A stretch of 64,000 nt of DNA from Escherichia phage vB_EcoM_AYO145A: the sequence record KR014248. The stretch is one strand, 5' to 3'. Both the position numbers and the translations under genes were made by a program. This document shows, piece by piece, positions 3,010 through 7,955 of the stretch. Under the pieces are notes generated by a model. It worked only from the letters and a program-made list of their open reading frames with translations, searched no databases and was not told where the DNA came from. Numbering within the stretch: position 1 is the stretch's first letter; each line of letters begins with the position of its first letter.

Positions 3010-3086
3010 CTCTGTTTAGCTCAGCTTGGTAGAGCGTTCCGTTTGGGGCGGTAAGGCCGGAGGTTCAAGTCCTCCAACAGAGACCA
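3010..3086 (+). tRNA. tRNA-Pro (anticodon TGG)
   Basis: Cloverleaf folded by eye. Acceptor CTCTGTT/AACAGAG, D-stem GCTC/GAGC, anticodon loop TTTGGGG, T-arm GGAGGTTCAAGTCCTCC. CCA is encoded. Confidence 0.9.
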
Positions 3087-3093
3087 AATTAAT

Positions 3094-3171
3094 GTTCCAG
3101 TAGACAAAATGGTAAAGTCACCACTCTTTCAAAGTGGATATTTGAGGGTTCAAATCCCTTCTGGAACGCCA
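3094..3171 (+). tRNA. tRNA-Glu (TTC)
   Basis: Acceptor GTTCCAG/CTGGAAC, anticodon stem-loop CCACT-CTTTCAA-AGTGG, T-loop TTCAAAT. CCA is encoded. Confidence 0.88.
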
Positions 3172-3178
3172 GTTTTGA

Positions 3179-3251
3179 CAGAAGACCAATTACAGCAAAC
3201 TTAATCTTATTCATCTGACACGAAATCGGACAAAGAAGAGATTTGGTCTGG
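3179..3251 (+). ncRNA. Y-RNA-like small RNA YL1 (conserved-clamp family, no tRNA module)
   Basis: 5' CAGAAGACC (3179-3187) and 3' GGTCTGG (3245-3251). Helix AGACCAA/TTGGTCT, with the conserved 5' extension TTACAGCAAA. Lies between tRNA-Glu and tRNA(CAT), 7-11 nt from each. Confidence 0.55.
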
Positions 3252-3262
3252 TCATTAAGAAT

Positions 3263-3339
3263 TGCGGGTATAGAGAAAGGGCGTCTCACATGTCTCATTA
3301 GCATGGTATCGGCAGGTTCGACTCCTGCACCCGCCTCCA
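3263..3339 (+). tRNA. tRNA with CAT anticodon (Met or Ile2); acceptor register uncertain
   Basis: D-stem GAGA/TCTC, anticodon stem-loop CATGT-CTCATTA-GCATG, T-arm GCAGGTTCGACTCCTGC, 3' ACCCGCC-T-CCA. The best acceptor pairing leaves a 1:72 T-C mismatch. Confidence 0.75.
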
Positions 3340-3345
3340 ATTTTG

Positions 3346-3405
3346 CAGAAGACCGTATGCAGCAATAAACTACTTTTTGCGGATAAAAGAAAAAACACGG
3401 TCTGG
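3346..3405 (+). ncRNA. Y-RNA-like small RNA YL2
   Basis: 5' CAGAAGACC (3346-3354) and 3' GGTCTGG (3399-3405). Helix AGACCGT/ACGGTCT covaries relative to YL1. Motif TGCAGCAA. Lies between tRNA(CAT) and tRNA-Asn. Confidence 0.55.
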
Positions 3406-3416
3406 CAATGTATTAA

Positions 3417-3493
3417 GGTTAGGAAGCACATAAGGTATGTGCGGTCGCCTGTTAAGCGAATGGCACAGGGTTCGAATCCCTGACTAACCGCCA
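3417..3493 (+). tRNA. tRNA-Asn (GTT)
   Basis: Acceptor GGTTAGG/ACTAACC (7:66 mismatch), D-stem GCAC/GTGC, anticodon loop CTGTTAA, T-arm CAGGGTTCGAATCCCTG. CCA is encoded. Confidence 0.85.
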
Positions 3494-3502
3494 AATTTAA
3501 AT

Positions 3503-3590
3503 GTGTCGTTATCCCGTAGATGGTAGCGGTGGGGACTGTAAATCCCTTGTCATTGAGACTCGGTAGGTTCGACTCCTACACGGCACACCA
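3503..3590 (+). tRNA. tRNA-Tyr (GTA), type II
   Basis: Acceptor GTGTCGT/ACGGCAC, anticodon stem-loop GGGGA-CTGTAAA-TCCCT, long variable arm, T-arm GTAGGTTCGACTCCTAC. CCA is encoded. Confidence 0.88.
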
Positions 3591-3596
3591 AATAAA

Positions 3597-3674
3597 GGTT
3601 ATGTAGTTTAATCTGGTTAAAATACTCCCCTGTCACGGGAGATGATGAGGGTTCAAATCCCTTCGTAACCGCCA
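3597..3674 (+). tRNA. tRNA-Asp (GTC)
   Basis: Acceptor GGTTATG/CGTAACC, anticodon stem-loop CTCCC-CTGTCAC-GGGAG, T-arm GAGGGTTCAAATCCCTT. CCA is encoded. Confidence 0.88.
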
Positions 3675-3728
3675 AATTATAATAAGTATTCCAAGATGAT
3701 GTTTTGAGAGGGCTATTTAGCCCCTCCC

Positions 3729-3756
3729 TTAAAGAGTTCTTACGAGTATTCTTTAA
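3729..3756 (+). repeat. conserved-loop hairpin H1 (family of 3-4 in the tRNA array)
   Basis: Stem TTAAAGA/TCTTTAA, loop GTTCTTACGAGTAT. Ends 5 nt before YL3. Confidence 0.6.
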
Positions 3757-3761
3757 AGGAG

Positions 3762-3838
3762 CAGAAGACCAAATTCAGCAAGTACGTATGATATTTTCAA
3801 GCCAATTTAATTTTGAAAAAATTTAAAACTTGGTCTGG
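3762..3838 (+). ncRNA. Y-RNA-like small RNA YL3
   Basis: 5' CAGAAGACC (3762-3770) and 3' GGTCTGG (3832-3838). Helix AGACCAA/TTGGTCT, motif TTCAGCAA, internal hairpin TTTTCAA/TTGAAAA. Confidence 0.55.
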
Positions 3839-3851
3839 CTCAACAAATTTA

Positions 3852-3983
3852 CAGAAGACCGTTTACAGCAAAACTTAAACAATCTATTTCTCCGGTAAAG
3901 AAAAGGCGAAGGTTCGATTCCTTCACTCGGCAGATGTCGAGTTGGTGTAATGGTAGCACTTAAGATGATAAACAACGGTCTGG
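3852..3983 (+). ncRNA. Y-RNA-like small RNA YL4 with a circularly permuted tRNA-like module (YrlA-like architecture)
   Basis: Clamp CAGAAGACC (3852-3860) and GGTCTGG (3977-3983). Helix AGACCGTT/AACGGTCT, then CTTAA (3874-78)/TTAAG (3960-64). T-arm GAAGG-TTCGATT-CCTTC (3908-24). Acceptor 3' strand ACTCGGC (3925-31), 4-nt AGAT link, acceptor 5' strand GTCGAGT (3936-42). D-arm GTGT-AATGGTA-GCAC (3945-59). Confidence 0.65.
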
Positions 3984-3984
3984 T

Positions 3985-4128
3985 AATTATCTTTGTAGAT
4001 AAGTTATTAAGCTTACCTGTGAGTATGCGACCACAAAGGGTGAAAGGGTAAATTCTAGATTTAAACCCAACAAGGCACATCGCTACAGACCTTAAGCAAG
4101 TCTGGGTAGCTTATCTACAAAGATAATT
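3985..4128 (+). ncRNA. structured element closed by a 19-bp perfect stem
   Basis: AATTATCTTTGTAGATAAG (3985-4003) pairs perfectly with CTTATCTACAAAGATAATT (4110-4128). The interior contains hairpin GCTACAGAC-CTTAAGCAA-GTCTGGGTAGC, which echoes the YL clamp. Confidence 0.45.
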
Positions 4129-4133
4129 TTAAT

Positions 4134-4209
4134 GGAAGTGTAGCAGAATGGTGATGCGGCAGACTTTTAATCTGACAGGCGATGGGTTCGAATCCCTCCA
4201 CTTCTACCA
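4134..4209 (+). tRNA. tRNA-Lys (TTT)
   Basis: Acceptor GGAAGTG/CACTTCT, anticodon loop CTTTTAA, T-loop TTCGAAT with an irregular T-stem (GATGGG/CCCTCC). CCA is encoded. Confidence 0.8.
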
Positions 4210-4213
4210 ATAT

Positions 4214-4290
4214 GGTTCAGTCGCAGATAAGGTAATGCAGGGGTCTCATAAGCCCTATGAATGTGGGTTCGATTCCCATCTGAACCTCCA
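4214..4290 (+). tRNA. tRNA with CAT anticodon (Met or Ile2)
   Basis: Acceptor GGTTCAG/CTGAACC, anticodon stem-loop GGGGT-CTCATAA-GCCCT, T-arm GTGGGTTCGATTCCCAT. CCA is encoded. Confidence 0.85.
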
Positions 4291-4291
4291 A

Positions 4292-4367
4292 GCTGGTATA
4301 GTTAAGAAGGTTATAACACTCCCCTGATAAGGGAACATCGGTGGTTCGATTCCACCTACCAGTACCA
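4292..4367 (+). tRNA. tRNA-Ile (GAT)
   Basis: Acceptor GCTGGTA/TACCAGT, anticodon loop CTGATAA, T-arm GGTGGTTCGATTCCACC. CCA is encoded. Confidence 0.88.
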
Positions 4368-4382
4368 ATTTCAATAAAGTTG

Positions 4383-4411
4383 TTGACATTGAGATGTGAC
4401 TACTTTATAGT
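4383..4411 (+). promoter_or_regulatory. consensus-like internal promoter within the tRNA array
   Basis: TTGACA at 4383-4388, a 17-nt spacer, TATAGT at 4406-4411. Confidence 0.7.
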
Positions 4412-4577
4412 AACCTTAGTTTTCGTTGCGTAGCGTCTATTTTGCAAATTTAAAATAAATGCAAACGACAATGTTTTTCTGGCAGTAGCTTGATAGGCTA
4501 AACACCAGTGAGGTCTTCCAATCCCTCATCAAAGAATTTGGCGTACTCGCCCACGGTATGATTAATAAGGTGGGCAT

Positions 4578-4608
4578 CTTTAAGGGCTTTCTAAGAGAGT
4601 CTTTAAAG
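4578..4608 (+). repeat. conserved-loop hairpin H2
   Basis: Stem CTTTAAGGG/TCTTTAAAG (with G-T wobbles), loop CTTTCTAAGAGAG. Ends 7 nt before the atypical tRNA(TCT). Confidence 0.55.
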
Positions 4609-4615
4609 ATAATTA

Positions 4616-4697
4616 CGGGGCGTATCTCAGCGGTCTTCTAAACCGCCGTTAACCGAGTAAGTGGAGTATGCGGGTTCGAGTCCTGCCGCCTCGACCA
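4616..4697 (+). tRNA. atypical tRNA-like gene, anticodon TCT (Arg), no recognisable D-arm
   Basis: Acceptor CGGGGCG/CGCCTCG, perfect anticodon stem-loop GCGGT-CTTCTAA-ACCGC, T-arm GCGGGTTCGAGTCCTGC. CCA is encoded. Only 7 nt lie between the acceptor and anticodon stems, and the variable region is 23 nt. Confidence 0.5.
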
Positions 4698-4839
4698 AAT
4701 AGTTAGCAGATTACTTAGACGGTCTTAGCGGGTCTTCCTGTAGGGAGGTGGTCTGTATCTCATGTTTTCCAGAACATGTAAATAATCTGAGAAGGGGCTT
4801 TACAGTGTTGAGATAATACGGTAAGCTTCGAATTATAGT

Positions 4840-4922
4840 GTGGGACGATGTTAAGACTCTAAGGCATGAGCAACGGCTTCCAACACCGTTTCAAAGGGGT
4901 TCAACTCCTCCGTCCCATGCCA
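4840..4922 (+). tRNA. atypical tRNA-like gene, best read as tRNA-Trp (CCA)
   Basis: Acceptor GTGGGAC/GTCCCAT, discriminator G, CCA, T-loop TTCAACT. The anticodon region reads either ACGGC-TTCCAAC-ACCGT (CCA, C31-A39 mismatch) or AACGG plus a 9-nt loop. The D region is oversized. Trp is otherwise the only amino acid missing from the array. Confidence 0.5.
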
Positions 4923-4935
4923 AAGTCTTATTAGG

Positions 4936-5023
4936 GGTAGGTAGCGGCTAATGGTAGCCAAACTGTCTTGAAAACAGTTGCCACTGTAGAGATACGGTGA
5001 GGGTTCGACTCCTTTACTTACCG
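4936..5023 (+). tRNA. tRNA-Ser (TGA), type II
   Basis: Acceptor GGTAGGT/ACTTACC, anticodon stem-loop ACTGT-CTTGAAA-ACAGT, long variable arm, T-loop TTCGACT. CCA is not encoded (the sequence is GCCT). Confidence 0.85.
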
Positions 5024-5280
5024 CCTAATAAGATTTAAAGCCAAGCTTCATTCGGATGTTGCTTTGGTATACCGCGTGTATTGTTGTACGCACTGATAAA
5101 GCACCTAGTAGGTGTCACGGAGAAGAGATAATATCAAGCTCTCCAAAGGTTCTAGTCACCGGATTAAACAAGACTATGCAAAGACCTTTTTAGGTCTTTT
5201 TAGAGGGCTTCTAAGGTTATTACAGCTTGTTGTGGAACCTTGTTGCTTAGGTTCTTAGAAGTTCTCTAAAAAGACTTAAT

Positions 5281-5358
5281 GGGAGATTGACGGTAATTGG
5301 TAAACCTATCTCGCTTAGAACGAGATGTTTGAGGGTTCGAATCCCTTGTCTCCTACCA
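5281..5358 (+). tRNA. tRNA with TAG anticodon (Leu), short variable region
   Basis: Acceptor GGGAGAT/GTCTCCT, anticodon stem-loop TCTCG-CTTAGAA-CGAGA, T-arm GAGGGTTCGAATCCCTT, A73, CCA. At 78 nt it lacks a type II long arm. Confidence 0.75.
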
Positions 5359-5365
5359 AATTAAT

Positions 5366-5441
5366 GCAGGTGTAGCAAAATGGTTATGCGGCTGACTCTT
5401 AATCAGTAAGACGATGGGTTCAATTCCCTCCACCTGTACCA
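5366..5441 (+). tRNA. tRNA-Lys (CTT)
   Basis: Acceptor GCAGGTG/CACCTGT, anticodon loop CTCTTAA, T-loop TTCAATT. CCA is encoded. Paralogous to the Lys(TTT) gene. Confidence 0.82.
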
Positions 5442-5447
5442 AACAAT

Positions 5448-5523
5448 GGGGATGTAGTTTACATGGTTAAAACATAAGTTTTGCAAACTTAAGTACAGGG
5501 TTCAATTCCCTGCTTCTCCACCA
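5448..5523 (+). tRNA. tRNA-Ala (TGC)
   Basis: Acceptor GGGGATG/CTTCTCC with a G3:T70 wobble (Ala identity pair), anticodon stem-loop TAAGT-TTTGCAA-ACTTA, T-arm CAGGGTTCAATTCCCTG. CCA is encoded. Confidence 0.85.
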
Positions 5524-5529
5524 ATTAGT

Positions 5530-5604
5530 GCATCCATAGTTTAAACGGGAAAATTACAGTCTTCCAAACTGAGGTTGAGGGTTCGATTCCCTCTGGATGC
5601 TCCA
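5530..5604 (+). tRNA. tRNA-Gly (TCC)
   Basis: Acceptor GCATCCA/TGGATGC, anticodon loop CTTCCAA, T-arm GAGGGTTCGATTCCCTC. CCA is encoded. Confidence 0.88.
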
Positions 5605-5610
5605 AACAAT

Positions 5611-5687
5611 GCTGCTTTCGTATAATTGGCTATTACACATCCCTTGTAAGGATGGAAATGCAGGTTCGAGTCCTGTGAGCAGCACCA
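5611..5687 (+). tRNA. tRNA-Thr (TGT)
   Basis: Acceptor GCTGCTT/GAGCAGC, anticodon stem-loop CATCC-CTTGTAA-GGATG, T-arm GCAGGTTCGAGTCCTGT. CCA is encoded. Confidence 0.88.
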
Positions 5688-5690
5688 ATT

Positions 5691-5779
5691 CAGAGGTCAA
5701 GTGAAAGACCGCTTTGAGTCAACTGAAGACCGTAACAAATTCCACGGAGTTGAGTTAGCGGCACAACTCCAGACCTCTT
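5691..5779 (+). ncRNA. structured spacer element between tRNA-Thr and tRNA-Val
   Basis: Outer stem AGAGGTC (5692-98)/GACCTCT (5772-78), inner hairpin GGAGTTG/CAACTCC. Contains CTGAAGACCGT, which resembles the YL 5' motif. Confidence 0.35.
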
Positions 5780-5783
5780 TCAT

Positions 5784-5858
5784 ACTCGCTTAGTTTATAT
5801 GGTAAAACATCACCCTTACAAGATGAAGAAAAAGGTTCAAGCCCTTTAGTGAGTACCA
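5784..5858 (+). tRNA. tRNA-Val (TAC)
   Basis: Acceptor ACTCGCT/AGTGAGT, D-stem GTTT/AAAC, anticodon loop CTTACAA, T-arm AAAGGTTCAAGCCCTTT. CCA is encoded. Confidence 0.85.
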
Positions 5859-5859
5859 T

Positions 5860-5937
5860 GTTCCAGTATCCCAATTGGCAGAGGATGCAAGCTCAAACCT
5901 TGTATTAGTGACGGTTCGAATCCGTCTTGGAACACCA
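5860..5937 (+). tRNA. tRNA with CAA anticodon (Leu), short variable region
   Basis: Acceptor GTTCCAG/TTGGAAC, Leu-like D-loop CCAATTGGCAGAGG, anticodon stem-loop GCAAG-CTCAAAC-CTTGT, T-arm GACGGTTCGAATCCGTC, A73, CCA. 78 nt. Confidence 0.78.
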
Positions 5938-5942
5938 ATTTT

Positions 5943-6018
5943 GCAGGATTAGTTCAAATGGAAAGAGCAACAGTCTACGAAGCTGTTAATAGGGGTTCGA
6001 ATCCCTTATCCTGCGCCA
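5943..6018 (+). tRNA. tRNA-Arg (ACG)
   Basis: Acceptor GCAGGAT/ATCCTGC, D-stem GTTC/GAGC, anticodon stem-loop ACAGT-CTACGAA-GCTGT, T-arm AGGGGTTCGAATCCCTT. CCA is encoded. Confidence 0.88.
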
Positions 6019-6037
6019 ATTTAAAGAGGCTATTTAG

Positions 6038-6595
6038 ATGAGATATTTGAAGTATGCTTCATGGATTTTCTTAGCTTTGTTAGAGCCATTTGCAGCAATC
6101 TTAGCAGTTATCTTAGCACCTTTCGTAGTTCCATTCTACAGTGAGAAGAAAGGCCACTTACCTTTCGGATTTAGATGGATGGAGACCTATGACAACCCGA
6201 TTGATGGTGATGAAGGCCACGTTAAAAGATGGGCTAAGATTAGAAAGATTGGTAAGCTCGGTGTTTATATGCAGAGAGTTGGATGGCTCTGGAGAAACAA
6301 AGCTTATAACTTCTCTTACCATGTATTAGGAAGAGATGTAAAAGATGTTACTAAGTGGAAAGGTAATATCAACGTAAGTTCTAACCCTGAAGATAATCAG
6401 ACAGGTTATCTCCTAATGTGGAACAGTAATGCTTGGGGATTATTTGCTTTTATCCCATCTATTAAAGTCTTTGGTAAACAATTCTACTGGAGAATTTATG
6501 TTGGGTGGAAACTAAAAAGTGTTGTCCCAGAAGAAAGAGCATTCTCAAGGGAAAGAGTTATGTTGGCATTCTTTATTCATCCACTAAGAAAATAA
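6038..6595 (+). CDS. hypothetical membrane protein embedded in the tRNA array
   Basis: 185-aa ORF with AAAGAGG RBS. The N-terminus is hydrophobic (WIFLALLEPFAAILAVILAPFVVPF). Confidence 0.7.
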   Translation: MRYLKYASWIFLALLEPFAAILAVILAPFVVPFYSEKKGHLPFGFRWMETYDNPIDGDEGHVKRWAKIRKIGKLGVYMQRVGWLWRNKAYNFSYHVLGRDVKDVTKWKGNINVSSNPEDNQTGYLLMWNSNAWGLFAFIPSIKVFGKQFYWRIYVGWKLKSVVPEERAFSRERVMLAFFIHPLRK

Positions 6596-6603
6596 AGATT
6601 TAA

Positions 6604-6679
6604 AGGGGATTAGTTTACAAGGTTAAAACCTCGGTCTTTGAAATCGAAGAAGTTGGTTCAATTCCAACATCCCCCGCCA
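6604..6679 (+). tRNA. tRNA-Gln (TTG)
   Basis: Acceptor AGGGGAT/ATCCCCC (1:72 A-C mismatch), anticodon stem-loop TCGGT-CTTTGAA-ATCGA, T-arm GTTGGTTCAATTCCAAC. CCA is encoded. Confidence 0.82.
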
Positions 6680-6681
6680 AT

Positions 6682-6760
6682 GCTCCATTACTCCAATTGG
6701 CAGAGAGGCCAGACTTAAAATCTGTGTTATGTATCGGTTCGAATCCGATATGGAGTACCA
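6682..6760 (+). tRNA. tRNA with TAA anticodon (Leu), short variable region
   Basis: Acceptor GCTCCAT/ATGGAGT, D-loop CCAATTGGCAGAG, anticodon loop CTTAAAA, T-arm ATCGGTTCGAATCCGAT, A73, CCA. 79 nt. Confidence 0.78.
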
Positions 6761-6765
6761 AATTT

Positions 6766-6841
6766 AGCGGTATAGCATAACTGGCAATGCAACAGTCTCT
6801 GAAGCTGTCCTATTAAGGTTCAAATCCTTATGCCGCTGCCA
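6766..6841 (+). tRNA. tRNA-Gln (CTG)
   Basis: Acceptor AGCGGTA/TGCCGCT, D-stem GCAT/ATGC, anticodon stem-loop ACAGT-CTCTGAA-GCTGT, T-arm TAAGGTTCAAATCCTTA. CCA is encoded. Confidence 0.85.
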
Positions 6842-6845
6842 CTTC

Positions 6846-6869
6846 TAAGGGTTCTTACGAGAGTCCTTA
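6846..6869 (+). repeat. conserved-loop hairpin H3
   Basis: Stem TAAGGG/TCCTTA covaries with H1. Loop TTCTTACGAGAG. Ends 3 nt before tRNA-His. Confidence 0.6.
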
Positions 6870-6872
6870 AAT

Positions 6873-6948
6873 GTGGCCTTATCATAAAAGGTAATGACCC
6901 ATGCTGTGAACATGGTCTATACGGGTTCAAATCCCGTAGGTCACCCCA
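6873..6948 (+). tRNA. tRNA-His (GTG)
   Basis: Acceptor GTGGCCT/AGGTCAC, anticodon stem-loop CCATG-CTGTGAA-CATGG, T-arm ACGGGTTCAAATCCCGT, C73, CCA. Confidence 0.88.
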
Positions 6949-6954
6949 ATTTAT

Positions 6955-7030
6955 AGTCCAAGTAGCTTATATGGTTAAAGCGCGTGTCTGAAAAACATGA
7001 GAAGAGGGTTCAAATCCCACTGGACTACCA
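6955..7030 (+). tRNA. tRNA-Phe (GAA); acceptor-stem register ambiguous
   Basis: D-stem GCTT/AAGC, anticodon stem-loop CGTGT-CTGAAAA-ACATG, T-loop TTCAAAT. A perfect 7-bp pairing TAGTCCA/TGGACTA leaves no discriminator before CCA, and other registers leave a bulge. Confidence 0.75.
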
Positions 7031-7046
7031 ATTTCAAAGGTGCTTA

Positions 7047-7781
7047 ATGAAAGAGATGACAGAACAAGGTAAGGAGATTTTTAATCTCTTAAAAACCGGT
7101 AAAGGGTTCTCTAACCCGCTTATTACTGGTGCAGCAGTTCTCGGTGGAACCGTAGCTGCTTCTACATCACTTGTAAGCTCTATTAGTTCTGTAACAGACC
7201 CTACAATGAAGGAGAAACTTGTTGCTGCTGGACTTACAACAGTCCTTTTAAACAGCTTTACAACAAGCCTTACAAGCACTACAGCAACTACTAAGACCCT
7301 AACAGACTACGGTCAAAAGTCTATTGATGAGTTTTCATCACGTATGCAGGTAGCAAAGGGATACTCCAATGTTATGGGTGCAGTAGGAGAACAAGTTGGT
7401 TGTACACCATTCAGTGGTATTATGGGTGTTGCTACAGAGTATGGTCAAAAAGCTATTGACACAATTAACAGTGCACTAGACGGTGTTAATGATGTATTAA
7501 GTGACTTACAAGATGCTATTGATAAAGGTCTTGATACTGTTTCTGATTTAGCTAACCAAGCTGTTAGTAAGATTAATGAAGGTATCTCAAAGATTACAGC
7601 TTATGCAGATGAAGTTGTGCAGATGATTGAAGAAGAAGCTGCCCTTATTGCAGAGTACCTTAAAACAAATATCAATGGGTTCTTAGCAGGTATCTTACCA
7701 GACTGGTTTGATGATGCTTGTAAAACTGGTGTGATTGATACTATTGCAACACCAGAAATGAAGAACGCATTACAGAAATAA
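7047..7781 (+). CDS. hypothetical Ser/Thr-rich coiled-coil protein embedded in the tRNA array
   Basis: Track ORF 6984..7781 trimmed to ATG 7047, because the upstream part overlaps tRNA-Phe. AAAGGTG RBS. Confidence 0.65.
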   Translation: MKEMTEQGKEIFNLLKTGKGFSNPLITGAAVLGGTVAASTSLVSSISSVTDPTMKEKLVAAGLTTVLLNSFTTSLTSTTATTKTLTDYGQKSIDEFSSRMQVAKGYSNVMGAVGEQVGCTPFSGIMGVATEYGQKAIDTINSALDGVNDVLSDLQDAIDKGLDTVSDLANQAVSKINEGISKITAYADEVVQMIEEEAALIAEYLKTNINGFLAGILPDWFDDACKTGVIDTIATPEMKNALQK

Positions 7782-7782
7782 T

Positions 7783-7875
7783 GGAAGATTAACCCTAAAA
7801 GGTAAGGGAGCAGTTTGCTAAACTGCCAGTAGCTGAGAAATCGGTGTACCAGTTCAAGTCTGGTATCTTCCTCCA
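7783..7875 (+). tRNA. tRNA-Ser (GCT), type II
   Basis: Acceptor GGAAGAT/ATCTTCC, anticodon stem-loop GCAGT-TTGCTAA-ACTGC, 21-nt variable arm, T-arm ACCAGTTCAAGTCTGGT. CCA is encoded. Starts 2 nt after the stop of CDS 7047..7781. Confidence 0.88.
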
Positions 7876-7879
7876 ATTT

Positions 7880-7955
7880 GAATCCGTGACAGAAATGGCT
7901 ATGTGCCTGTCTGCAAAACAGGTTTATAAGGGTTCGAGTCCCTTCGGATTCTCCA
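7880..7955 (+). tRNA. tRNA-Cys (GCA)
   Basis: Acceptor GAATCCG/CGGATTC, anticodon stem-loop CCTGT-CTGCAAA-ACAGG, T-arm AAGGGTTCGAGTCCCTT. CCA is encoded. Confidence 0.9.

What the first reader, a model, noticed from the sequence alone, without database searches (positions are those of the whole stretch)
4616..4697. tRNA-like gene with anticodon UCU that lacks a D-arm and has a 23-nt variable region
The acceptor stem, a perfect anticodon stem-loop (GCGGT-CTTCTAA-ACCGC), the T-arm and the CCA are all intact. Only TATCTCA separates the acceptor from the anticodon stem.

The 5' part resembles a type II (Ser-like) tRNA that has lost the D-stem 3' strand and the anticodon 5' strand. D-armless tRNAs are known from metazoan mitochondria, not from phages.

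Possible explanations are a decayed pseudogene, a decoy for anticodon nucleases, or a non-canonical functional tRNA.
Basis: seen in the sequence. Interest (0 to 1): 0.55.

Follow-up and report, generated by a model that had tools for sequence, protein, structure and literature searches.

The report
Phage arginine tRNA with rewired D-arm
This is not a decayed gene: it belongs to a widespread, conserved family of phage tRNAs (arginine, and some isoleucine) in which the usual D-arm hairpin is replaced by a three-base-pair helix that spans the whole anticodon arm, followed by a relocated D-loop, a fold I could not find described for any bacterial or phage tRNA.

Summary
Window 4616-4697 (+) has a 7-bp acceptor stem, a perfect anticodon arm (UCU), a canonical T-arm and an encoded CCA, but no D hairpin. 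ARAGORN misses it. Rfam's tRNA model scores 31.7 bits and deletes the D-arm.

It is not a pseudogene. The same 78-nt gene occurs in unrelated phage groups, in IMG/VR contigs, metagenomes and MAG contigs; 170 distinct sequences were parsed. All stems covary.

The "spacer" CUC (4626-4628) pairs with GAG (4655-4657) in the "variable region". This helix is fully paired in 157 of 170 sequences, with 17 pair combinations. The loop after it (UAAGUGGAGUAU) reads like a D-loop.

The same scaffold carries only Arg anticodons (UCU, CCU, ACG, UCG) or Ile anticodons (GAU, UAU). The base after GG is A in Arg members and U in Ile members, matching the known position-20 determinants of ArgRS and IleRS.

In the window it is the only AGR decoder, and AGA is 38% of Arg codons. 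In the sister genus Mooglevirus the same slot holds a canonical tRNA-Arg(UCU).

Best reading: a functional tRNA-Arg(UCU) with a topologically rewired D-domain. Expression and charging are untested. Nine literature searches found no description of this fold.

The parts
4616..4697 (+). Whole gene: non-canonical tRNA-Arg(UCU), 78 nt plus discriminator A and an encoded CCA
   Evidence: Rfam tRNA model scores 31.7 bits. Family model R1 scores 100.1 bits. Segments verified.
4616..4622 (+). Acceptor stem, 5' strand (CGGGGCG). G7 is almost invariant in the family.
   Evidence: Pairs with 4687-4693. Six of the seven pairs show compensatory changes.
4623..4625 (+). UAU connector. Proposed equivalents are U8, A9 and a U facing U4658.
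   Evidence: Invariant in alignments A1 and A2, although later scans required it. The structural role is inferred.
4626..4628 (+). CUC: 5' strand of the 3-bp long-range helix, the D-stem equivalent
   Evidence: Pairs with GAG at 4655-4657. Fully paired in 157 of 170 distinct sequences, with 17 pair combinations. Both-sided changes occur at all three pairs.
4629..4629 (+). Single unpaired base (A) between the long-range helix and the anticodon stem, the position-26 equivalent
   Evidence: Always one nucleotide: A 94, C 59, U 11, G 6 among 170 distinct sequences.
4630..4646 (+). Anticodon arm GCGGU-CUUCUAA-ACCGC, with anticodon UCU at 4637-4639
   Evidence: All five stem pairs show compensatory changes. 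The loop is CUUCUAA or CUUCUAC in 65 of 66 hits from an anticodon-free IMG/VR scan and UUCCUAA (CCU) in one.
4647..4654 (+). Linker CGUUAACC, bulged between the anticodon stem and the 3' strand of the long-range helix
   Evidence: Length differs between subfamilies (4, 5, 8 or 10 nt) while the helix is kept.
4655..4657 (+). GAG: 3' strand of the 3-bp long-range helix
   Evidence: As for 4626-4628.
4658..4669 (+). D-loop-like segment UAAGUGGAGUAU. GG lies at 4663-4664 (G18 G19 equivalents). A4665 is the position-20 equivalent, the ArgRS determinant. The last U is a candidate U48.
   Evidence: UAA..GGA was present in all true family members from scans that left this region free. The base after GG is A in all Arg-anticodon members and U in all five Ile-anticodon members. 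The determinants are taken from PMC9976931. Position numbering is inferred.
4670..4686 (+). T-arm GCGGG-UUCGAGU-CCUGC with a canonical T-loop
   Evidence: Four of the five pairs covary. UUCGANU matches the tRNA consensus in the Rfam alignment.
4687..4693 (+). Acceptor stem, 3' strand (CGCCUCG)
4694..4697 (+). Discriminator A73 and genome-encoded CCA
   Evidence: The discriminator is G or A in 149 of 170 distinct family sequences, and CCA is encoded in 105 of 170.

Best explanation
Window 4616-4697 encodes a functional elongator tRNA-Arg(UCU) of a non-cloverleaf architecture. It supplies decoding of AGA (and probably AGG) to a Felix O1-like phage.

**Shown (secondary structure).**
- The acceptor stem, anticodon arm and T-arm are standard.
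- The D hairpin is absent.
- Three bases just after the acceptor stem (CUC) pair with three bases 3' of the anticodon arm (GAG), so this short helix encloses the anticodon arm.
- The 12-nt segment that follows has D-loop sequence features and runs straight into the T-stem.

**Inferred (3D and function).**
- The 3-bp helix stacks on the anticodon stem as a D-stem does.
- The GG of the relocated loop docks on the T-loop to form the elbow.
- The following A sits where A20 sits and is read by ArgRS together with C35, U36 and A73.
- In effect the order 'D 5' strand, D-loop, D 3' strand, anticodon arm' has become 'strand, anticodon arm, linker, strand, D-loop'. The tRNA core is kept with different chain connectivity.
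- The gene is transcribed with the surrounding same-strand tRNA cluster and processed like its neighbours.

Why this architecture is favoured is not established. Possibilities are a neutral but workable variant spread horizontally, or resistance to a host tRNA-targeting nuclease.
For: 1. **Structure under selection.**
   - Among 39 distinct sequences, 99% of cells are paired and the covariation score is 0.77 against 0.19 for shuffles.
   - Among 112 distinct model-aligned sequences, 97.5% are paired and the score is 0.93 against 0.22.

2. **The long-range helix is real.**
   - It is fully paired in 157 of 170 distinct sequences. There are 17 pair combinations, including CUC/GAG, CGG/CCG, CCC/GGG, CAC/GUG, CGC/GCG, CAG/CUG, CUU/AAG and ACC/GGU.
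   - In alignment A3 the pair types are: pair 1, CG 80, UA 16, GC 9, AU 7; pair 2, GC 55, CG 31, UA 13, AU 12.

3. **Broad distribution.** The element is found in the following groups:
   - Felixounavirus;
   - Sugarlandvirus (Demerecviridae);
   - Justusliebigvirus;
   - Mydovirus and other Vequintavirinae;
   - Asteriusvirus and another jumbo phage;
   - a Vibrio phage;
   - IMG/VR contigs, metagenomes and MAG contigs.

4. **Identity nucleotides track the anticodon.**
   - The scaffold carries only UCU, CCU, ACG, UCG (Arg) or GAU, UAU (Ile).
   - The base after the loop GG is A in all Arg members, including 7 found without that base being required. It is U in all 5 Ile members, which also all have A73.
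   - Published bacterial determinants are: Arg, A20, C35, U/G36, A/G73; Ile, U20, U21, A73 plus the anticodon (PMC9976931).

5. **Genomic role.**
   - In 81 phage loci every neighbouring ARAGORN tRNA is on the same strand.
   - A canonical tRNA-Arg UCU or CCU co-occurs in only a few loci. Several of those are complementary: the element is UCU and the canonical tRNA is CCU in L070, L075, L128 and L131.
   - L066 carries two scaffold members, one CCU and one UCU.

6. **Demand in the window.** The 25 canonical tRNAs include no AGR decoder. AGA is 38% of Arg codons, 15.9 per 1000, in 42 long ORFs.

7. **In-situ replacement.** In Mooglevirus (Moogle, Sf17) the same slot holds a canonical tRNA-Arg(UCU). 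The flanks are 91-94% identical to the window.

8. **Standard end features.** The T-loop is canonical, the acceptor/T configuration is 7/5, and CCA is encoded.
Against: - There is no evidence here of transcription, processing, aminoacylation or ribosomal use.
- The 3D model, including the position numbering of the relocated loop, is inferred from sequence logic only.
- The thermodynamic fold of the single sequence is no better than shuffles (z = 0.04) and does not predict the 3-bp helix. RNAalifold prefers a small local hairpin.
- 13 of 170 sequences have a mismatch at the helix pair next to the anticodon stem.
- Most wide-family members were collected with patterns that required UAU, CUUCUA, UAA..GGA and the T-loop. 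Invariance of those motifs is therefore partly by construction.
- Members with other anticodons could be found only where they sit next to a UCU member. "Only Arg and Ile" is a lower bound.
- About 12% of members have U or C as discriminator.
Confidence: 0.75

Rival explanations
1. It is a nuclease-resistant replacement or decoy. The RNA exists mainly to defeat a host tRNA-targeting defence (an anticodon nuclease, or a nuclease that cuts the D-loop or acceptor stem). It either soaks up the enzyme or is a functional tRNA-Arg whose rewired core is not recognised.
For: - Phage tRNAs that neutralise tRNA-cleaving defences are documented, as cited in PMC12916289: PARIS, Cas13, retrons that cut D-loops, and Eco2 cutting acceptor stems, including host tRNA-Arg.
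- The anticodon loop is invariant.
- The core topology differs exactly where some nucleases act.
- The element replaces a canonical tRNA-Arg(UCU) in Felixounavirus, as if the variant had an advantage.
Against: - A pure decoy has no need to keep ArgRS or IleRS determinants at the position-20 equivalent and at 73 in step with the anticodon.
- A pure decoy would not need to be complementary to canonical CCU or UCU isoacceptors.
- No specific nuclease for tRNA-Arg(UCU) or tRNA-Ile is implicated by any data here.
- The "resistant but functional" version is compatible with the best explanation and is not really a rival.
Confidence: 0.15
2. It is a decayed tRNA pseudogene: a former type II or Arg tRNA gene that lost its D-arm by deletion and is no longer functional.
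For: ARAGORN does not call it. The Rfam score is only just above threshold. The single-sequence fold has z = 0.04.
Against: - The length is exactly 78 nt in 76 of 81 phage loci.
- Unpaired segments are near-invariant while the stems change freely by compensatory substitutions, across unrelated phage families and metagenomes.
- The anticodon is restricted to Arg and Ile.
Confidence: 0.02
3. It is a DNA-level element. The conservation reflects a homing-endonuclease recognition or insertion site, or a recombination hotspot, rather than an RNA function.
For: - HNH_3, HNH and NUMOD3 endonuclease genes start 6-30 nt downstream of the element in many phages, including Sugarland, PHA46 and several metagenomic loci.
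- Felix O1 and other close relatives carry an HNH gene in this intergenic region.
Against: - Compensatory base changes in four helices are a signature of selection on RNA pairing, not on a DNA site.
- Many members have no endonuclease gene nearby: 73 of 191 loci have any ORF of at least 100 aa starting within 200 nt downstream, and only some of those are nucleases.
- Homing may explain horizontal spread, but it does not explain the structure.
Confidence: 0.05
4. It is a mitochondrion-like D-armless tRNA with a type II variable hairpin. In this view UAUCUCA is a plain connector, and the 23-nt region forms its own small hairpin (YCG/UGG, as RNAalifold proposes).
For: The RNAalifold consensus on A1 and the single-sequence MFE both draw a 3-bp local hairpin in the 23-nt region.
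Against: - That hairpin shows no both-sided change: U-G/C-G at one pair, and the other two pairs are invariant.
- It uses G4655, which covaries with C4628.
- It cannot form in subfamilies whose 3' strand is GGG, GUG or CUG.
- The T-loop and the GG motif are canonical, unlike mitochondrial D-armless tRNAs.
Confidence: 0.03

Closest known systems
Canonical bacterial and phage tRNA-Arg(UCU), for example E. coli argU or the Mooglevirus tRNA-Arg at the orthologous slot
   Same: - Identical 7-nt anticodon loop CUUCUAA.
- 7-bp acceptor stem and 5-bp T-stem with a canonical T-loop.
- A/G73 and CCA.
- A GG-A motif like the G18 G19 A20 of tRNA-Arg D-loops.
- The same place in the phage tRNA cluster.
   Different: - There is no D hairpin.
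- The two strands of the D-stem equivalent flank the anticodon arm.
- The D-loop equivalent lies 3' of the anticodon arm and joins the T-stem directly.
- There is no ordinary 4-5-nt variable loop.
- The overall form is a three-way junction rather than a four-way junction.
Metazoan mitochondrial D-armless tRNAs, for example mt-tRNA-Ser(AGY/UCU)
   Same: There is no D hairpin between the acceptor and anticodon stems. Some of these also have anticodon UCU or read AGN codons.
   Different: - The mitochondrial forms replace the D-arm with a short unstructured connector.
- They lack the G18 G19 and T-psi-C motifs.
- They need adapted mitochondrial factors (PMC7609411).
- The element here keeps GG, a canonical T-loop and a covarying long-range helix, and it would have to work with ordinary bacterial factors.
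Type II tRNAs (long variable arm: Ser, Leu, bacterial Tyr) and allo-tRNAs (8/4, 9/3)
   Same: A long segment lies between the anticodon arm and the T-arm. Allo-tRNAs are also found in phages and tRNA arrays, and some have AGR anticodons (PMC5389517).
   Different: - Those tRNAs have a normal D-arm and a self-contained variable hairpin.
- Here the long segment pairs back to the 5' connector.
- The acceptor/T configuration is 7/5.
- Identity features are Arg or Ile, not Ser.
Circularly permuted tRNA genes (Cyanidioschyzon merolae) and split tRNAs (my own knowledge, not checked here)
   Same: The order of tRNA segments in the gene differs from the textbook order.
   Different: Permuted and split genes are processed back into a normal cloverleaf. 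Here the 5' and 3' acceptor strands are in normal order, and the rearrangement would persist in the mature RNA.
Engineered non-canonical tRNA evolved to function in E. coli (PMC11551756)
   Same: It addresses the same question: can bacterial translation use a tRNA without the canonical fold?
   Different: That was a laboratory transplant of a D-arm-lacking tRNA. [quoted passage not shown] The present family is natural, widespread and has a different topology.

Membership tests
tRNA (Rfam RF00005 / general definition) | 7-bp acceptor stem, discriminator base and 3' CCA (encoded or added) | tested here: met
   4616-4622 pairs with 4687-4693; A4694; CCA at 4695-4697. The stem covaries.
tRNA (Rfam RF00005 / general definition) | Anticodon arm: 5-bp stem and 7-nt loop with U33 and a purine at 37 | tested here: met
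   GCGGU-CUUCUAA-ACCGC. All five pairs covary.
tRNA (Rfam RF00005 / general definition) | T-arm: 5-bp stem and a UUCRANY loop | tested here: met
   GCGGG-UUCGAGU-CCUGC.
tRNA (Rfam RF00005 / general definition) | D-arm hairpin (3-4-bp stem and a GG-containing loop) between positions 10 and 25 | tested here: not met
   The Rfam alignment has 4 nt in place of the 15 model positions. ARAGORN makes no call. It is replaced by a long-range 3-bp helix and a relocated GG loop.
tRNA (Rfam RF00005 / general definition) | Score at or above the curated gathering threshold | tested here: met
   31.7 bits against 29.
tRNA (Rfam RF00005 / general definition) | Aminoacylated and used by the ribosome | not testable with these tools
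   Only indirect evidence: identity nucleotides track the anticodon, there is codon demand, and a canonical tRNA-Arg is replaced in situ.
Bacterial tRNA-Arg identity set | A20 in the D-loop, C35, U/G36 and A/G73 (PMC9976931, Table 1) | tested here: inconclusive
   C35, U36 and A73 are present. An A follows the loop GG (A4665) in every Arg-anticodon member and is U in the Ile members. Its equivalence to position 20 is inferred, not demonstrated.
Mitochondrial D-armless tRNA | The D-arm is replaced by a short unpaired connector, the G18G19/T-psi-C elbow motifs are lost, and the gene lies in an organelle genome | tested here: not met
   The connector bases pair long-range. GG and UUCGA are retained. 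The genomic context is phage.
Type II (long variable arm) tRNA | A self-contained variable-arm hairpin supported by covariation, together with a normal D-arm | tested here: not met
   The only local hairpin proposed has no compensatory support and conflicts with the covarying helix. There is no D-arm.
allo-tRNA (8/4 or 9/3) | A 12-bp acceptor branch split 8/4 or 9/3, with Ser-type features | tested here: not met
   The configuration is 7/5, with both stems covarying in that register.

The most novel reading that the evidence does not exclude
Phages, and the mobile tRNA arrays seen in MAG contigs, use a second natural tRNA architecture alongside the cloverleaf. In it the strands of the D-stem flank the anticodon arm, and the D-loop is moved to the 3' side, directly ahead of the T-stem. 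The molecule is charged by ordinary bacterial ArgRS or IleRS and decodes on ordinary ribosomes. This would be the first non-cloverleaf elongator tRNA operating in bacterial cells, and it has so far been filed only as tRNA-OTHER or tRNA-Undet in genome records.
Probability: 0.55. Interest if true: 0.9.

Novelty: new variant of a known kind. Interest (0 to 1): 0.8.

Why it matters
**For tRNA biology.**
[quoted passage not shown] - A natural family that keeps the core residues but rewires the chain would show that ArgRS, IleRS, EF-Tu, RNase P, the CCA enzyme and the ribosome tolerate a different topology.
- The family comes with hundreds of natural sequence variants, so it is a ready test of which covalent connections in the tRNA core matter.
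- It could serve as a scaffold for orthogonal or engineered tRNAs.

**For genome annotation.**
- Standard tRNA finders miss these genes or label them "undetermined".
- Phage tRNA repertoires, codon-usage matching and "missing tRNA-Arg(UCU)" calls are therefore biased.
- In this window the phage would wrongly appear to lack an AGA decoder although AGA is its joint most-used Arg codon.

**For phage-host conflict.** If the rewiring protects against a tRNA-targeting defence, it would be a new kind of counter-defence.

Tried and rejected
1. **Hidden cloverleaf.** The Rfam alignment and ARAGORN show no D-arm.
2. **Single-sequence thermodynamics.** The MFE is no better than shuffles (z = 0.04) and does not show the long-range helix. 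This was uninformative.
3. **RNAalifold consensus.** It proposes a local YCG/UGG hairpin. I rejected it because it has no compensatory change, it conflicts with the covarying C4628-G4655 pair, and it cannot form in several subfamilies.
4. **Ser-like type II origin.** No Ser anticodons or features occur in any member.
5. **Other anticodons in the scaffold.**
   - An anticodon-free IMG/VR scan gave only UCU and CCU.
   - Covariance-model and structural scans of all fetched loci added ACG, UCG, GAU and UAU and nothing else.
   - The sampling is biased towards neighbours of UCU members.
6. **Host copy.** There is no match in 5,426 complete E. coli genomes.
7. **A cellular bacterial gene.** The 25 genome-collection hits are all MAG contigs. 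Where they could be parsed, they sit in dense same-strand tRNA arrays, some beside HNH genes. I cannot tell prophage or mobile array from a core gene.
8. **Literature.** Nine full-text searches found no description of this architecture. The library is incomplete, so this is not proof of novelty.
9. **ORFs.** Nothing longer than 46 aa overlaps 4368-4935.
10. **Caveat on alignment A2.** Its sequences were preselected for full helix pairing, so its 100% figure for that helix is by construction. The unbiased figures are 157 of 170 and 94% in A3.

Full report
**What is in the window.**

The window comes from a Felix O1-like phage. The 568 bases around the finding match 262 phage records, mostly Felixounavirus, at 80-99% identity. 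A same-strand cluster of 25 ARAGORN tRNAs spans 3010-7955.

The finding at 4616-4697 reads CGGGGCG-UAUCUCA-GCGGU-CUUCUAA-ACCGC-CGUUAACCGAGUAAGUGGAGUAU-GCGGG-UUCGAGU-CCUGC-CGCCUCG-A-CCA.

ARAGORN does not call it. The Rfam tRNA model does, at 31.7 bits against a threshold of 29. Its alignment removes the D-arm (4 nt for 15 positions) and inserts 20 nt in the variable region. No ORF longer than 46 aa overlaps the surrounding intergenic stretch.

**It is a conserved gene, not debris.**

A 100-nt query finds the element at 82-90% identity over essentially its full length in unrelated phage groups:
- Sugarlandvirus (Demerecviridae);
- Justusliebigvirus (Stephanstirmvirinae);
- Mydovirus and another Vequintavirinae phage;
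- Asteriusvirus jumbo phages;
- a 337-kb Salmonella phage;
- a Vibrio phage.

A few records annotate it as tRNA, tRNA-OTHER or tRNA-Undet.

Read side by side, the stems differ freely and in a compensatory way. UAUCUCA and the 23-nt region are almost invariant.

Pattern scans of IMG/VR, a metagenome collection and a genome collection raised the set to 216 loci and 170 distinct sequences.

On 39 distinct sequences, 99% of cells are paired and the covariation score is 0.77, against 0.19 for shuffles and at most 0.14 for slid partners. On 112 distinct sequences aligned by the family model, the figures are 97.5% and 0.93 against 0.22.

**The key structural result.**

The CUC of the "spacer" (4626-4628) pairs with the GAG inside the "variable region" (4655-4657).

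The first clue was a Vibrio phage with CAC and GUG. Scans that left these bases free then found these further combinations:
- CGC/GCG;
- CUU/AAG;
- ACC/GGU;
- CGG/CCG;
- CCC/GGG;
- CAG/CUG;
- UCC/GGA.

In a parse that did not require pairing, 157 of 170 distinct sequences have all three pairs, in 17 combinations. The other 13 have one mismatch at the pair next to the anticodon stem. In the model-based alignment every one of the three pairs shows both-sided changes.

The helix encloses the anticodon arm, so the molecule is a three-way junction.

Between the anticodon stem and the 3' strand lies a linker whose length depends on the subfamily: 8 nt here, and 4, 5 or 10 nt elsewhere. The helix is followed by a 12-17-nt loop beginning UAA and containing GG.

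RNAalifold instead drew a small local hairpin. That hairpin has no compensatory support and competes with a covarying pair, so I reject it.

**The relocated loop behaves like a D-loop (part shown, part inferred).**

The loop UAAGUGGAGUAU resembles the D-loops of the canonical tRNA-Arg genes seen in these same loci, such as AGUUGGAUA and AACGGAUA.

The family model, which gives 100.1 bits at 4616-4693 and at most 31.3 bits for canonical tRNAs in the window, was run over the fetched loci. Together with an independent structural scan, it found paralogues of the same scaffold with other anticodons:
- ACG (3);
- UCG (1);
- CCU (4);
- GAU (3);
- UAU (2).

These anticodons specify only arginine and isoleucine.

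In every Arg member the base after GG is A. In all five Ile members it is U, and those five all have A as discriminator.

The tRNA identity review lists A20, C35, U/G36 and A/G73 for bacterial Arg. It lists U20, U21, G16, A73 and the anticodon for bacterial Ile (PMC9976931). So a nucleotide in the relocated loop tracks the anticodon exactly as position 20 does in ordinary tRNAs.

This is the strongest indirect evidence for two points. The loop occupies the D-loop's place, and these RNAs are substrates of ArgRS or IleRS.

From this I infer the following model:
- The 3-bp helix stacks on the anticodon stem like a D-stem.
- U4623, A4659, A4660, GG at 4663-4664, A4668 and U4669 play the roles of U8, A14, R15, G18 G19, A21 and Y48.
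- The chain passes directly from the A21 equivalent to the Y48 equivalent and into the T-stem. These layers are adjacent in known tRNA structures.

No 3D tool was available, so this model is untested.

**Genomic role.**

In 81 phage loci every neighbouring tRNA is on the same strand, and 51 loci have one within 300 nt. The MAG contigs carry the element inside dense arrays of up to 25 tRNAs.

A canonical tRNA-Arg with UCU or CCU co-occurs in only a few loci. Several of these are complementary pairs, with the scaffold carrying UCU and the canonical tRNA carrying CCU. L066 carries two scaffold members, one CCU and one UCU.

In the window the only canonical Arg tRNA is ACG. AGA is 38% of Arg codons and AGG 10% in 42 long ORFs.

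In Mooglevirus phages Moogle and Sf17, the slot bounded by the same upstream hairpin (94% identity) and the same downstream sequence (91-93%) contains an ordinary tRNA-Arg(UCU), followed by a further ~130 nt that the window lacks. Felixounavirus has the non-canonical gene there instead.

The element is absent from 5,426 complete E. coli genomes.

**Explanations weighed.**

- Pseudogene: excluded by the comparative data.
- DNA-level element: homing-endonuclease genes (HNH_3, HNH, NUMOD3) sit immediately downstream in many phages. This may help horizontal spread but cannot account for compensatory changes.
- Pure nuclease decoy: it would not need synthetase determinants that follow the anticodon. 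A functional tRNA that also escapes a nuclease remains possible and is compatible with the main reading.
- Best reading: a functional tRNA-Arg(UCU) with a rewired D-domain, at about 0.75 confidence. That it is a selected, structured RNA I consider near certain. The 3D details are the least secure part.

**Comparison with known kinds, and novelty.**

- It passes the Rfam tRNA threshold and has three of the four arms, but it fails the D-arm criterion.
- It is not like mitochondrial D-armless tRNAs, which lose the GG and T-psi-C motifs (PMC7609411).
- It is not a type II tRNA or an allo-tRNA (PMC5389517).
- It is not a permuted gene that matures into a cloverleaf.

Nine full-text searches found no description of this fold. 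[quoted passage not shown] The search library is incomplete, so prior description cannot be ruled out.

I rate it a new variant of a known kind, of high interest.

**Limits.**

- Most wide-family members were gathered with patterns that fixed UAU, CUUCUA, UAA..GGA and the T-loop. Invariance of those motifs is therefore partly by construction.
- Alignment A2 was preselected for helix pairing.
- Non-UCU members could be seen only next to UCU members.
- Nothing here shows expression or charging.

Noticed in passing
window 4840-4922 (+): A second tRNA-like gene that ARAGORN and Rfam both miss.
- Its acceptor stem is GUGGGAC(G) with (C)GUCCCAU, followed by G and CCA.
- The T-arm is GGGG-UUCAACU-CCUC, so the acceptor/T configuration is either 8/4 or 7/5 with an A-C mismatch.
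- The anticodon arm has CCA (Trp) in the loop and a C-A mismatch at the closing pair.
- The D-loop has no GG.
- The canonical set in the window lacks tRNA-Trp.
- It is conserved across Ounavirinae. The anticodon stem shows compensatory changes: ACGG/CCGU, UAAG/CUUA and UAGG/CCUA.
   Followed up: partly
window 4576-4610 (+); also 5186-5285: A perfect 16-bp hairpin (AUCUUUAAGGGCUUUC-UAA-GAGAGUCUUUAAAGAU) ends 5 nt before the tRNA 5' end. It is also found upstream of the canonical tRNA-Arg in phage Sf17. The region 4470-4615 folds with z = -3.7. A similar long hairpin at 5186-5285 drew spurious plant microRNA hits from Rfam. These may be processing or termination signals inside the tRNA cluster.
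   Followed up: no
window 4383-4411 (+): The best sigma-70-like promoter match in the tRNA region is TTGACA-17-TATAGT, 11 of 12 positions. It lies about 200 nt upstream of the element, inside the cluster.
   Followed up: no
L003 1598-2107, L007 1609-2127, and many IMG/VR and metagenome loci: Homing-endonuclease genes (Pfam HNH_3, HNH, NUMOD3 with a nuclease domain) start 6-30 nt downstream of family members in unrelated phages. Felix O1, Alf5, warpig and mio carry an HNH gene in this same intergenic region, where the window has none.
   Followed up: partly
L204 11737-11812 and 12641-12716; L171 5106-5181; L186 (- strand) 3074-3153 and 5535-5610: The same rewired scaffold occurs with isoleucine anticodons GAU and UAU. 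In these members a U follows the loop GG and the discriminator is A. Locus L204 holds four scaffold members: Arg UCU, Arg ACG, Ile GAU and Ile UAU.
   Followed up: partly
L252 and L253, about 119-241 (Mooglevirus, between the canonical tRNA-Arg and the shared downstream flank): A tRNA-like element of about 125 nt. It has a 7-bp acceptor stem (GGUCAAG/CUUGACU), G-CCA and a canonical T-arm, but about 85 nt of other sequence in between. Its 3' part aligns weakly (73%) with the 3' part of the window element. Its nature is unknown.
   Followed up: no
L107, L109, L110, L113, L122, L126, L131 (Blastocatellia and Pyrinomonadaceae MAG contigs of up to 636 kb): Seven of the 25 genome-collection hits come from one acidobacterial lineage. 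Each lies in an array of 11-25 same-strand tRNAs. I could not tell whether these arrays are prophage or mobile-element cargo or part of the cellular tRNA set.
   Followed up: partly
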